Source: Hyphomicrobiales bacterium
Lineage (GTDB): Bacteria > Pseudomonadota > Alphaproteobacteria > Rhizobiales > JANPGK01
Assembly: GCA_031423895.1 (NCBI GenBank)
Contig: JANPGK010000002.1
Span: 20,837 to 84,836, forward strand
Direction of reading: 5' to 3'
DNA: 64,000 bases
Below the pieces are notes generated by a model, which did not search any database, was not told the origin of the DNA, and worked only from the letters and a program-made list of their open reading frames with translations. The translations under genes and the position numbers were made by a program. Every line of letters starts with the position of its first letter. Positions within the stretch are counted from its first letter, which is position 1. This document shows, piece by piece, positions 27,012 to 28,538 of the stretch.

Positions 27012-28538
27012 ATGCCCGCAAGCACTGACATTCTCGCCCTCATTGGCAACACCCCCATGGTGCGGGTGAACCATATGGACATTGGCTGCTGCGAGTTGTT
27101 CATCAAGCTGGAAAATCAAAACCCTGGTGGCTCGATTAAAGACCGCATTGCGCTGAGCATGATTGAAGCCGCAGAGAAAAATGGTGATCTGAAGCCAGGC
27201 GGCATTATTGTGGAGGCCACCGCTGGCAATACTGGGCTTGGGCTGGCGCTGGTGGCGGGGCAAAAGGGCTATACGCTCATTTTGGTGATTCCCGATAAAA
27301 TGAGCCAAGAGAAAATTTTTCATTTGAAGGCACTCGGCGCTGAAGTCATCCTCACCCGTTCGGATGTGGGCAAGGGTCACCCTGAATATTATCAAGATAT
27401 GGCGCAGCGCATCGCGCGTGAGCGTGGCGGCTGGTTTGTGAATCAATTTGCCAATCCTGCCAACCCGCTCACGCATGAGCGCAGCACGGGCCCCGAAATT
27501 TGGGAACAAATGGATGGTGATATCGACGCCATGGTAGTGGGTGTGGGCTCGGGCGGCACGCTTTCTGGCCTTGGGCGCTATTTGAAATCGAAAAACCCGA
27601 AGTTAGAGATGGTGTTGGCAGACCCACTCGGCTCCATTCTCGCGCCGCTGCATAATGATGGCGTGATGATTGAACCCGGCAGCTGGCTGGTGGAAGGCAT
27701 CGGCGAGGATTTCATCCCCGATATTTTGGACATGAAACTGCTCGACAAAGCCTACACCATTACCGATGCCCAAAGTGTGGCCACCGCGCGTGAGGTGCTC
27801 AAGGCCGAAGGCATTATGTGCGGCTCATCCTCTGGCACACTGATTGCCGCCGCATTGGCATATTGCCGCGCACAAACCACCCCAAAGCGTGTGGTGACAC
27901 TGGCGTGCGATAGTGGCAATAAATATCTCTCCAAAATGTTCAACGAGTTTTGGCTCGACGACCAAGGCTTTGTGGAGCGGAAAAAATTTAACGATCTGCG
28001 CGACCTCATCACCCGCCCGCACACCAAGCGCACGTCTGTCACCGTGCTGCCCACCGACACATTGCAAGGCGCCTATCGCAAAATGAAGATGTATGATGTC
28101 TCGCAAATGCCGGTGATGGACGGCAACGAGCTGCTGGGCATTATTAGCGAAACCGATATTTTGTTGAGTGTGATGGAGACAAATTCTGCCCATACTTCCC
28201 GCTCCCCCCTTGCGGGGGAGCTGTCGAACCAATCCTACATTGGTGAGACTGAGGGGGGTGTTCTTAACAAGAATAAAGTAAACCCCTCACCCGCCCTTTC
28301 AGGGCACCCTCTCCCGCAGGGGGAGAGGGGAAAAATGGGCTTCAACCGCCTTGTATCCCACTCCATGGCGCGCAACCTTGTGACCGTGCAGTATAAAAAG
28401 AAAATTGAAGACTTGCTGCCCATTTTCGAGCACGGCATGGTGGCCATTATTATGGATGGCGAGCAGTTCCTCGGGCTTGTCACCCCCATCGACCTGCTGC
28501 AACATTTGCGCAAAGCCGCGCTTACTAAAAAGGCATAA
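27012..28538 (+). CDS. cystathionine beta-synthase-like PLP enzyme with C-terminal CBS pair (repeat inserted between CBS motifs)
   Basis: KLENQNPGGSIKDR PLP-lysine motif and GTGGT-like loop, with two CBS motifs at the C-terminus. About 45 residues from an R1 repeat lie between them. Confidence 0.8.
   Translation: MPASTDILALIGNTPMVRVNHMDIGCCELFIKLENQNPGGSIKDRIALSMIEAAEKNGDLKPGGIIVEATAGNTGLGLALVAGQKGYTLILVIPDKMSQEKIFHLKALGAEVILTRSDVGKGHPEYYQDMAQRIARERGGWFVNQFANPANPLTHERSTGPEIWEQMDGDIDAMVVGVGSGGTLSGLGRYLKSKNPKLEMVLADPLGSILAPLHNDGVMIEPGSWLVEGIGEDFIPDILDMKLLDKAYTITDAQSVATAREVLKAEGIMCGSSSGTLIAAALAYCRAQTTPKRVVTLACDSGNKYLSKMFNEFWLDDQGFVERKKFNDLRDLITRPHTKRTSVTVLPTDTLQGAYRKMKMYDVSQMPVMDGNELLGIISETDILLSVMETNSAHTSRSPLAGELSNQSYIGETEGGVLNKNKVNPSPALSGHPLPQGERGKMGFNRLVSHSMARNLVTVQYKKKIEDLLPIFEHGMVAIIMDGEQFLGLVTPIDLLQHLRKAALTKKA
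28196..28331. repeat. R1 composite palindromic element, copy b (inverted), in frame inside a CDS
   Basis: gctccccccttgcgggggagc ... aacccctcacccgccctttcagggcaccctctcccgcagggggagagggg is the reverse complement of the R1 layout. Translated as SPLAGEL...NPSPALSGHPLPQGERG. Confidence 0.85.

What the first reader, a model, noticed from the sequence alone, without database searches (positions are those of the whole stretch)
28196..28331. R1 palindromic element inserted in frame between the two CBS motifs of a conserved enzyme
An inverted copy of the R1 repeat lies inside the cystathionine beta-synthase-like gene without breaking the frame. The other copies are at 3646, 43874 and 47009. The insert adds about 45 residues (…SPLAGELSNQSYIGETEGGVLNKNKVNPSPALSGHPLPQGERGK…) in the linker between CBS1 and CBS2. 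This mirrors the behaviour described for Rickettsia palindromic elements, which colonise coding sequences at permissive surface sites. The four copies share a multi-hairpin design: terminal ccctctccc/gggagaggg and ccttctccc/gggagaagg hairpins plus a long-range gggcgggtgaggg/ccctcatccgc pairing around a variable AT-rich core.
Basis: partly seen in the sequence, partly recalled or inferred. Interest (0 to 1): 0.6.

Follow-up and report, generated by a model that had tools for sequence, protein, structure and literature searches.

The report
Palindromic repeat read inside CBS gene
A selfish palindromic DNA repeat of about 140 bases sits inside the cystathionine beta-synthase gene of an uncultured alphaproteobacterium without breaking the reading frame and adds a floppy loop of about 50 residues; it is one of at least 22 such in-frame insertions in this small genome, a habit known from Rickettsia but seen here with the G/C-rich "triplex-motif" (BoxC/TMECO) type of repeat, which is tied to a small DUF559 nuclease gene.

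Summary
Window 27012-28538 encodes a 508-aa cystathionine beta-synthase. About 150 nt (about 28187-28336, some 50 aa) is extra compared with 99 close homologues and 80 species-level orthologues; none of them has it. The extra piece lies between CBS1 (aa 342-387) and CBS2 (aa 452-500). AlphaFold2 models it as a disordered loop.

The insert is a full copy of a palindromic repeat with 115 loci in this 1.9-Mb genome, four of them in the window. At least 22 copies lie in frame in 21 housekeeping genes (MetH, LeuS, GltX, UvrC, PriA, NadE twice and others), so the Rickettsia-palindromic-element analogy is apt.

Each element is two inverted modules: a C-rich/G-rich hairpin followed by a mirror-image G-rich third strand. 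This is an elaborated form of the BoxC/PIT/TMECO intrastrand-triplex motif.

All three DUF559 (Vsr-like nuclease) genes of the genome sit between two such modules, as do 21 of 30 DUF559 genes sampled across Alphaproteobacteria. The nuclease is therefore a candidate mobiliser, which is not shown.

This scan has already reported the same repeat-nuclease theme on other DNA.

The parts
27012..28538 (+). Cystathionine beta-synthase gene, 508 aa, intact reading frame
   Evidence: ORF list. Pfam PALP 7.6e-73 plus two CBS stretches. It is 69-75% identical to 456-aa homologues, and the window protein keeps every invariant residue of the alignment, including K43 and G179-T183.
28035..28172 (+). CBS1 motif (aa 342-387)
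   Evidence: Pfam PF00571 best stretch. The AF2 helix 380-392 ends just before the insert.
28187..28336 (+). Footprint of the insertion relative to orthologues: about 150 nt, about 50 aa (AHTSRSPLAGELSNQSYIGETEGGVLNKNKVNPSPALSGHPLPQGERGKM). Boundaries are uncertain by a few bases.
   Evidence: Protein alignments A1 and A2. 80 orthologous loci have 444-456 codons. AF2 pLDDT is below 50 for aa 392-436 with no secondary structure.
28195..28334 (+). Core of the palindromic element, from short terminal inverted repeat (CTTCC) to terminal inverted repeat (GAAAA/GGAAG-like)
   Evidence: nhmmer hit C2:49031-49172, 101 bits, among the ten best of 115 loci. Terminal logo from 85 copies.
28201..28221 (+). 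Module C terminal hairpin GCTCCCCC / GGGGGAGC
   Evidence: Read from the sequence. The same module occurs in about 45 other loci.
28229..28243 (+). Mini-hairpin CCAAT-CCTAC-ATTGG inside the long second loop of module C
   Evidence: Sequence and fold.
28250..28258 (+). G-rich third strand of module C (TGAGGGGGG), the mirror image of the purine stem GGGGGAGC
   Evidence: Sequence. Genome-wide, the mirror rule gives 70 perfect matches against 1 for the direct-repeat rule.
28259..28282 (+). AT-rich spacer between the two modules. In three other loci of the genome a DUF559 gene sits at this position.
   Evidence: Sequence. DUF559 loci.
28283..28329 (-). Module A in inverted orientation. On the minus strand it reads CCCTCTCCC-loop-GGGAGAGGG, mini-hairpin GCCC-TGAAA-GGGC, third strand GGGTGAGGGG.
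   Evidence: The arm is 98% complementary to the copy at 47010-47060.
28365..28511 (+). CBS2 motif (aa 452-500)
   Evidence: Pfam on the C-terminal fragment, E = 4.6e-6. AF2 secondary-structure elements 448-507.
28542..29702 (+). Cys/Met-metabolism PLP enzyme (cystathionine gamma-lyase type), 4 nt after the CBS stop. Together the two genes form a reverse-transsulfuration pair.
   Evidence: Pfam PF01053, E = 2.7e-150.
3641..3762 (+). Second copy of the family in the window (modules A> <B), not spanned by a long ORF
43872..43997 (+). Third copy (A> <B), not spanned by a long ORF
47006..47138 (+). Fourth copy (A> <B), the best-scoring copy in the genome (108 bits), with no open frame across it

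Best explanation
A non-autonomous palindromic repeat of about 140 nt inserted into the linker between the two CBS motifs of cystathionine beta-synthase. It consists of two inverted BoxC/TMECO-like triplex modules, type C and type A, around an AT-rich spacer. The copy happened to be stop-free in the host frame, and it adds a multiple of three bases. It is therefore most likely transcribed and translated with the gene, giving a disordered surface loop of about 50 residues that the enzyme tolerates. It has no necessary function for the host. It is the survivor of a filter: elements land anywhere, and only copies that are open, in phase and at permissive sites persist inside genes. Shown here: the insertion, its lineage specificity, its position, the family and its anatomy, and the same outcome in 21 other genes. 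Inferred: translation, neutrality, and the mode of spread. The best candidate for spread is mobilisation in trans by the DUF559 Vsr-like nuclease, whose gene occupies the spacer of three longer (about 450 nt) copies.
For: Lineage-specific insert. Position between CBS1 and CBS2. Disordered loop. Family of 115 loci. At least 22 in-frame copies with Pfam domains on both sides, or with one domain stretched by about 40 aa. The same peptides recur in unrelated enzymes (SPLAGELS..ETEGGIL..NPSP..PLPQGE(R)G; LPSPLAGEG). Rough filter arithmetic: elements are open in about 1.4 of 6 frames. About 87% of the genome lies in long ORFs, yet only 23 of 102 full-length copies are genic. That is a retention of about 4%, against about 8% expected from the open-frame chance times one third for phase (inference). 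Genic and non-genic copies are equally well conserved (medians 77.8 and 82.4 bits, p = 0.37). There is no terminator-like site in the insert. The catalytic residues of CBS are conserved and a partner gene follows directly. DUF559 link: 3 of 3 genes in this genome are bracketed by inverted modules. Of 30 loci from 30 genomes, 21 are bracketed on both sides and 6 on one; 63 modules lie in 14.2 kb next to the gene against 3 in 73 kb further away. Across 200 genomes the two co-occur with an odds ratio of 19.
Against: No target-site duplication was detected at any fixed offset, so a classical cut-and-paste MITE mechanism is not supported. No close relative with an empty site exists in the collections; the nearest genomes are only of the same order, so the age of the event is unknown. 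DUF559 activity, its target and whether it drives the spread or is only a passenger are all untested.
Confidence: 0.85

Rival explanations
1. The insert has been co-opted: the 50-residue loop, or its DNA/RNA structure, now has a host function such as tuning the regulatory CBS pair or controlling expression of the CBS-CGL operon.
For: The copy is well preserved (101 bits, among the top ten of 115). It lies in the regulatory part of the enzyme. As RNA it folds very strongly, at -80 kcal/mol.
Against: The same peptides sit in 21 functionally unrelated enzymes. The loop is predicted to be disordered. Genic copies are no better conserved than intergenic ones. No terminator-like or meaningful promoter-like site lies in it. 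No orthologue has anything there.
Confidence: 0.06
2. The insert is an assembly artefact, or the gene is a decaying pseudogene.
For: The genome is a 39-contig draft. Some contigs begin inside copies of the repeat: C28, C29 and C4. Reads could not be inspected.
Against: Both flanks are the same gene, collinear with its orthologues, and the frame and phase are preserved. The same clean in-frame pattern is seen in 21 other genes on many contigs. All invariant residues of the family are kept. Assemblers break at repeats; they do not splice a repeat in phase into a gene.
Confidence: 0.04
3. The element is present in the DNA but is removed or bypassed before the protein is finished, by RNA splicing, translational bypass or protein splicing.
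For: The RNA structure is very stable, with end-to-end pairing. Bypass and intein precedents exist in other systems (general knowledge).
Against: If the insert were removed there would be no need for open frames or for lengths that keep the phase, yet every genic copy found is open and in phase. However, genes split by stop-carrying or out-of-phase copies were not searched for. Rfam finds no intron or other RNA family. Fifty residues with no Pfam match are too few for an intein.
Confidence: 0.03
4. On the mobility step only: DUF559 is not the mobiliser but a passenger. It would be a homing-type nuclease gene that inserts into the spacer of existing doublets, and the doublets would spread by another route such as replication slippage or template switching at structured DNA, recombination, or an unknown enzyme.
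For: Eleven of 44 genomes with the module pattern lack DUF559. There is no target duplication. Vsr-fold homing endonucleases exist (clade 58 in PMC3424549). The three DUF559 copies sit in three different module contexts. A second small insert of about 35 nt also targets these elements, always in the hairpin loop. This shows the elements are themselves targets.
Against: All 13 genomes with 12 or more modules have DUF559. The gene is bracketed in a fixed geometry in 21 of 30 genomes from different families. The DUF559 reading frame runs on into the downstream module and encodes the same tail peptides that the ORF-less copies add to host proteins, as expected if the short elements are internal-deletion derivatives.
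Confidence: 0.3

Closest known systems
Rickettsia palindromic elements (RPEs; Ogata et al. 2000, as summarised in PMC10969869)
   Same: Both are palindromic repeats of about 100-150 nt with dozens to about 100 copies in a small alphaproteobacterial genome. In both, a large share is inserted in frame into unrelated housekeeping genes, encodes recurrent peptides and sits at sites compatible with the fold.
   Different: The host is different: an uncultured alphaproteobacterium with 49% G+C, not Rickettsia. The design is G/C-rich homopurine/homopyrimidine hairpins with a mirror third strand. The modules are mixed and matched (types A, B, C, D). There is a candidate partner gene (DUF559), whereas to my knowledge none is known for RPEs. 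Sequence homology to RPE families was not tested.
BoxC / PIT / TMECO intrastrand triplex motifs (Holder et al. 2015, PMC4666352; BoxC first noted next to envM/fabI, Bergler 1992, cited there)
   Same: Both have a C-rich 9-nt stem, a short loop, a G-rich stem and then a G-rich mirror strand (consensus CCCTCNCCC N3-6 GGGNGAGGG N3 GGGNGAGGG). Both often occur as inverted pairs of two subtypes and are patchy across Proteobacteria.
   Different: In the CBS copy the second loop is 14 nt (module A) or 28 nt (module C) and holds its own mini-hairpin, instead of 3 nt. The pairs form a defined element of about 125-140 nt with short terminal inverted repeats. The paper says that in E. coli the motif is always intergenic and not linked to mobile elements. 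Here 23 of 102 full-length copies are inside genes and the motif brackets DUF559 genes.
REPIN-RAYT systems (REP doublets mobilised by a REP-associated tyrosine transposase; from my own knowledge)
   Same: Both comprise a dispersed doublet of inverted short palindromes plus a single-copy or few-copy gene flanked by the same repeats in inverted orientation.
   Different: The flanked gene here is a Vsr-like PD-(D/E)XK nuclease (DUF559), not a Y1/HUH transposase. No Y1_Tnp gene is present in this genome.
Bacterial MITEs that are sometimes read in frame (Correia, ERIC, Nezha and others; reviewed in PMC10969869)
   Same: They are small, have terminal inverted repeats, lack their own transposase, occur in many copies and occasionally form in-frame fusions.
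   Different: No target-site duplication was detectable, and there is no parent insertion sequence with a transposase.
Vsr-fold homing endonucleases such as I-Bth0305I (PDB 3r3p, listed with DUF559 in clade 58 of PMC3424549)
   Same: The nuclease fold is the same as DUF559. The genome's DUF559 protein matches PDB 3hrl at E = 2.8e-25. This is a precedent for a mobility role of the fold.
   Different: Those enzymes home introns or inteins into a specific allele. Here the gene sits between structured repeats that are dispersed genome-wide.

Membership tests
Rickettsia palindromic elements (RPE) | Palindromic repeat of about 100-150 bp, many copies per genome | tested here: met
   115 loci, 102 of them at least 100 nt long, in 1.9 Mb. 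The whole element folds end to end.
Rickettsia palindromic elements (RPE) | Frequent in-frame insertion into unrelated protein-coding genes with a recurrent encoded peptide | tested here: met
   At least 22 insertions in 21 genes with Pfam domains on both sides; recurrent peptides. Translation itself could not be tested.
Rickettsia palindromic elements (RPE) | Sequence homology to RPE families, and occurrence in Rickettsia and its relatives | not tested
   No RPE sequences were compared. The G/C-rich triplex-type design and the 49% G+C host argue for analogy rather than homology (inference).
Rickettsia palindromic elements (RPE) | Insertion at sites compatible with the protein fold (surface loops) | tested here: met
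   For CBS only: aa 392-436 have pLDDT below 50, between the last helix of CBS1 and the start of CBS2.
TMECO / BoxC / PIT triplex motif | CCCTCNCCC N3-6 GGGNGAGGG: C-rich and G-rich 9-nt stems with a short loop | tested here: met
   Module A of the CBS copy is CCCTCTCCC-CCTGC-GGGAGAGGG. Module C is a variant, GCTCCCCC/GGGGGAGC.
TMECO / BoxC / PIT triplex motif | Second loop of 3 nt before the third strand | tested here: not met
   The loop is 14 nt in module A and 28 nt in module C of the CBS copy, each holding a mini-hairpin. Type D modules of the same genome have 2 nt. Canonical loops of 3-4 nt occur in other alphaproteobacteria.
TMECO / BoxC / PIT triplex motif | G-rich third strand that mirrors the purine stem (purine-motif triplex rule: G on G, A or T on A) | tested here: met
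   For asymmetric stems there are 70 perfect mirror matches against 1 perfect direct match. Types A, B, C and D change all three strands in step. These are few independent events, and the copies are related by descent.
TMECO / BoxC / PIT triplex motif | Actual formation of an intrastrand triplex | not testable with these tools
   This needs CD, NMR or footprinting, as in PMC4666352. The long second loops may change stability.
TMECO / BoxC / PIT triplex motif | Intergenic location (stated for E. coli) | tested here: not met
   23 of 102 full-length copies lie in genes in this genome. In four other alphaproteobacterial genomes, 0 of 20 sampled pairs were convincingly genic.
MITE (miniature inverted-repeat transposable element) | Terminal inverted repeats | tested here: met
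   The two modules are inverted, and a short (T)(T)ACTTC ... GAAGT(A)(A) extension is visible in the logo of 85 copies.
MITE (miniature inverted-repeat transposable element) | Target-site duplication | tested here: not met
   No excess of direct repeats of 2-6 nt at any of 144 offset pairs against re-paired flanks. Imprecise anchoring of the element ends could hide a 2-nt duplication.
MITE (miniature inverted-repeat transposable element) | Parent element encoding a transposase with the same ends | tested here: inconclusive
   Longer copies with the same ends exist, but they encode a DUF559 nuclease, not a known transposase.
REPIN-RAYT | Y1 (HUH) transposase gene flanked by the repeats | tested here: not met
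   There is no PF01797 match in this genome, which is rated 100% complete. The flanked gene is DUF559.

The most novel reading that the evidence does not exclude
BoxC/PIT/TMECO-type triplex repeats are not passive structural motifs. They are the ends of a selfish unit whose enzyme is the DUF559 Vsr-like nuclease. The doublets of about 125-140 nt, including the one in CBS, would be internal-deletion derivatives mobilised in trans, analogous to REPINs but with a different enzyme class. They would be open in frame because the module is natively the coding sequence of the nuclease's C-terminal tail. In small genomes under weak selection they would then accumulate inside essential genes as translated loops.
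Probability: 0.3. Interest if true: 0.8.

Novelty: new variant of a known kind. Interest (0 to 1): 0.55.

Why it matters
Taken alone, the CBS insertion is one more case of selfish DNA tolerated inside an enzyme. Taken with the rest of the genome, it shows RPE-like colonisation of reading frames outside Rickettsia, and by a different class of repeat. That class is the G/C-rich triplex motifs that have been known in E. coli since the 1990s without an explanation of how they spread. The tight link to DUF559 genes gives a concrete, testable candidate for the missing enzyme. For annotation, it explains odd 40-50-residue low-complexity loops in otherwise conserved enzymes of such genomes. It also marks natural permissive sites for insertions, such as the CBS1-CBS2 linker.

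Tried and rejected
Several checks were closed, negative or only partly informative.

- **Rfam:** there was no match to any family in the window.
- **Target-site duplication:** none was found.
- **'All six frames open' idea:** rejected. Copies are open in only about 1.4 of 6 frames, no more than random windows.
- **In-frame colonisation as a general property of the repeat type:** not supported. Of 20 sampled inverted pairs in four other alphaproteobacterial genomes, none had Pfam domains on both sides; their long open frames are a by-product of high G+C.
- **Search for the 53-aa insert peptide in 5.8 billion proteins:** the only hit was RlmJ of the same genome. This particular sequence family therefore appears confined to this lineage.
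- **E. coli K-12 ycjD (DUF559):** support is only partial. One canonical TMECO lies about 170 nt downstream, and a degenerate hairpin lies at the gene's 3' end.
- **RAYT-type transposase:** absent from this genome.
- **Literature:** full-text searches for DUF559, YcjD, BoxC and TMECO found no paper linking these repeats to DUF559 or describing them in frame. This covers only the library searched.
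Full report
**1. The observation**

The window holds an open frame at 27012-28538 (+) of 508 aa. It has a PLP-dependent enzyme domain (PALP, aa 9-300, E = 7.6e-73) and two CBS motifs. CBS1 is at aa 342-387. The C-terminal fragment alone gives CBS2 at aa 452-500. A Cys/Met-metabolism PLP enzyme (PF01053, E = 2.7e-150) starts 4 nt after the stop codon, so the two genes look like a reverse-transsulfuration pair.

The repeat finder shows that 28282-28332 is 98% complementary to 47010-47060 and 90% complementary to 43874-43922. 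It also shows that 28302-28333 is 100% complementary to 3644-3675.

**2. Is it an insertion?**

The 120 best of 8000 homologues are nearly all 441-481 aa long. In alignments of 16 and of 100 sequences, the window protein alone has about 50 extra residues between '...ETDILLSV' and 'GF...', where the others have about five (TGNPD and the like). The few longer homologues are long only at the N-terminus.

Eighty orthologous loci from species-representative genomes match query residues 1-501 with only 444-456 codons. In same-order genomes the match breaks at residue about 387-393 and, where listed, resumes at about 440-444. Every invariant residue of the 100-sequence alignment is present in the window protein, the PLP lysine K43 and the G179-T183 loop among them. 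The gene therefore does not look decayed.

**3. Where it sits in the protein**

AlphaFold2 with the 100-sequence alignment gives mean pLDDT 77. The only long low-confidence stretch is aa 392-436 (block means 27-46), with no secondary structure. It lies between helix 380-392, which ends CBS1, and the elements of CBS2 at 448-507. The insert is thus modelled as a disordered loop in the linker of the CBS pair.

**4. The family**

The genome that holds the window has 1.90 Mb in 39 contigs and 49% G+C. An iterated nhmmer profile finds 115 loci, 102 of them at least 100 nt long. The CBS copy scores 101 bits, among the ten best. Rfam has no match in the window.

For each locus I asked whether any frame stays open across it and far to both sides. 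I then scanned the spanning ORFs against Pfam. In at least 21 genes the element lies between two domains or stretches one domain by about 40 residues:

- Synthetases and methyltransferases: GltX, LeuS, GlyS, UbiE, PrmA, RsmB.
- DNA repair and replication: UvrC, PriA, Fpg, AddA, an XerC/D-type recombinase.
- Metabolism: CBS, an anthranilate-synthase-type enzyme, a class-V aminotransferase, MetH, GcvT, AnmK, YgfZ, IspE, a metallophosphoesterase, and NadE (twice).

The inserted peptides recur: LPSPL(A/T)GEG......NPSP..PLPQGE(R/K)G, and SPLAGELS..ETEGGIL. The CBS insert reads TSRSPLAGELSNQSYIGETEGGVLNKNKVNPSPALSGHPLPQGERGK. This is the behaviour described for Rickettsia palindromic elements: about 150 bp, 44 insertions in R. 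conorii, and nearly half inside ORFs as in-frame fusions (PMC10969869, summarising Ogata et al. 2000).

**5. Anatomy**

Reading all copies in one orientation shows that each element is two inverted modules around an AT-rich spacer. A module runs as follows:

- a C-rich stem;
- a loop of 4-5 nt;
- the complementary G-rich stem;
- a second loop, which often holds a mini-hairpin;
- a G-rich 'third strand'.

At least four module types exist:

| Type | Purine stem | Third strand |
|---|---|---|
| A | GGGAGAGGG | GGGTGAGGG |
| B | GGGAGAAGG | GGATGAGGG |
| C | GGGGGAGC | TGAGGGGGG |
| D | GGGAGGGGG | GGGGGAGGG |

In each type the third strand is the mirror image of the purine stem, with T allowed opposite A. 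For asymmetric stems, the mirror rule is met perfectly 70 times and a direct-repeat rule once.

This is the design of the G/C-rich intrastrand triplex motif TMECO, also called BoxC or PIT. Its consensus is CCCTCNCCC N3-6 GGGNGAGGG N3 GGGNGAGGG, it often occurs as inverted pairs of two subtypes, and it forms a triplex in vitro (PMC4666352).

Three things differ here. The second loop is 14 nt in module A and 28 nt in module C of the CBS copy, instead of 3 nt. The pairs form a bounded element with short terminal inverted repeats. Many copies are genic, whereas the paper states that the E. coli motif is always intergenic and not linked to mobile elements.

The CBS copy is module C (28201-28258, forward), then the spacer (28259-28282), then module A (28283-28329, inverted). 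As a single strand the element folds end to end, with z = -5.8 as DNA and z = -6.6 (-80 kcal/mol) as RNA. No terminator-like site lies in it.

**6. Why so many are in frame**

Non-genic copies are open in 1.44 of 6 frames on average, no more than random windows. The element is therefore not stop-free by design.

About 87% of the genome lies in long ORFs, yet only 23 of 102 full-length copies are genic. Relative to intergenic copies this is a retention of roughly 4%. That is close to the product of the chance of an open frame (about 0.24), the chance of keeping phase (one third) and a fraction of tolerant sites. This arithmetic is a rough inference.

Genic and non-genic copies are equally conserved. 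The simplest reading is random insertion followed by purifying selection. In four other alphaproteobacterial genomes with many such pairs, none of 20 sampled pairs had Pfam domains on both sides. Heavy in-frame colonisation is thus a feature of this small genome and not of the repeat type. This fits weaker selection in a reduced genome, which is again an inference.

**7. How it may move**

No target-site duplication was detectable at any fixed offset. No Y1/RAYT transposase is present.

The genome has three DUF559 (PF04480) genes. Each lies exactly in the spacer between two inverted modules, giving units of about 450 nt. The protein matches the Vsr-fold 'endonuclease-like protein' 3hrl at E = 2.8e-25. 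Its clade includes Vsr and a homing endonuclease (PMC3424549).

Each DUF559 frame runs on into the downstream module. It there encodes the very tail peptides (ENPSPYPLPQGEG...) that the ORF-less copies add to host enzymes.

Across 201 genomes of the class, 55 have DUF559. In 30 loci from 30 genomes, a generic module finder gave the following:

- modules on both sides, in inward-facing orientation, in 21 loci;
- modules on one side in 6 loci;
- no modules in 3 loci;
- 63 modules in 14.2 kb beside the gene, against 3 in 73 kb further out.

The A/B module pattern occurs in 45 of the 201 genomes (44 of 200 without this one), and the reversed control pattern in none. Of the 44 other genomes with the pattern, 33 have DUF559, against 21 of 156 without it (odds ratio 19). 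The genomes are mostly from different families but are not strictly independent. All 13 genomes with 12 or more modules have the gene.

These results make DUF559 the best candidate partner, by analogy with REPIN-RAYT systems. They do not show that it drives the spread rather than riding along as a passenger. A homing-type nuclease gene that targets the spacer of pre-existing doublets would give much the same picture, and 11 pattern-positive genomes lack the gene.

In E. coli K-12 the DUF559 gene ycjD has one canonical TMECO about 170 nt downstream and a degenerate hairpin at its 3' end, which is only partial support.

**8. Prior knowledge and novelty**

In-frame palindromic elements are known (RPEs and some MITEs; PMC10969869), and the triplex motif is known (PMC4666352). 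Full-text searches found no paper that links the two or ties the motif to DUF559; this covers only the library searched.

This scan has already reported the same repeat-nuclease theme many times on other DNA, and twice for other genes of this genome, ubiG and rsmB. A later check there rated the 'moved by its own nuclease' reading at about 25%. My own tests agree with that level of caution.

The 53-aa CBS insert has no counterpart in 5.8 billion proteins apart from RlmJ of the same genome. The particular sequence family is therefore lineage-specific, although the design is widespread.

**9. Limits**

The insertion boundaries are uncertain by a few bases, because the native linker is short and variable. 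The count of in-frame copies rests on Pfam domain positions, not on orthologue alignments, except for CBS. Genes split by out-of-phase copies were not searched for.

**10. Verdict**

By itself it is a new member of a known kind of event. In its genomic context it is a new variant: RPE-like colonisation of reading frames by BoxC/TMECO-type triplex doublets, with a DUF559 nuclease as candidate partner.

Noticed in passing
own genome outside the window, e.g. G000:C35:31636, C18:27796, C4:130410 (16 sites): A nested insert of about 33-37 nt, TGCCCTCCGAAGCCCG..GGGCGAAGGATGGGC, always sits in the loop of the terminal hairpin of modules of types A, B, C and D. It is either a second-order element that targets the hairpin loop or a recombining loop variant.
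   Followed up: partly
L044 1420-1857(-), L045 1384-1926(-), L046 1423-1830(-) (G000 C8, C37, C18): The three DUF559 reading frames continue through the downstream module. Their C-terminal tails (e.g. ENPSPYPLPQGEGQ) are the same peptides that ORF-less copies add to UbiE, AnmK, RsmB and LeuS. In the C8 copy (L044), the G-rich third strand lies a few bases upstream of the DUF559 start codon, like a ribosome-binding site.
   Followed up: partly
G000:C5:134509-136350 (NadE) and G000:C35:45511-46659 (XerC/D-like): NadE carries two separate in-frame elements. The recombinase gene carries two half-modules 80 nt apart in one frame.
   Followed up: partly
G000 contigs C28, C29 (bases 10-116) and C4 (8-100): Several contigs begin inside copies of the repeat, and C28 and C29 start with identical sequence. 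The repeat family therefore breaks the assembly, and its copy number is a lower bound.
   Followed up: no
201 sampled genomes of the same class: This genome has the highest density of A/B-type modules in the sample: 76 in 1.9 Mb, against at most 82 in 4.2 Mb elsewhere. It has no relative closer than order level in the collection.
   Followed up: partly
L047 4206-4240 and 4395-4425 (E. coli K-12, downstream of ycjD): One canonical TMECO and one degenerate hairpin lie at the 3' side of the DUF559 gene ycjD, next to fabI. BoxC was originally described at fabI (ref. 46 of PMC4666352).
   Followed up: partly
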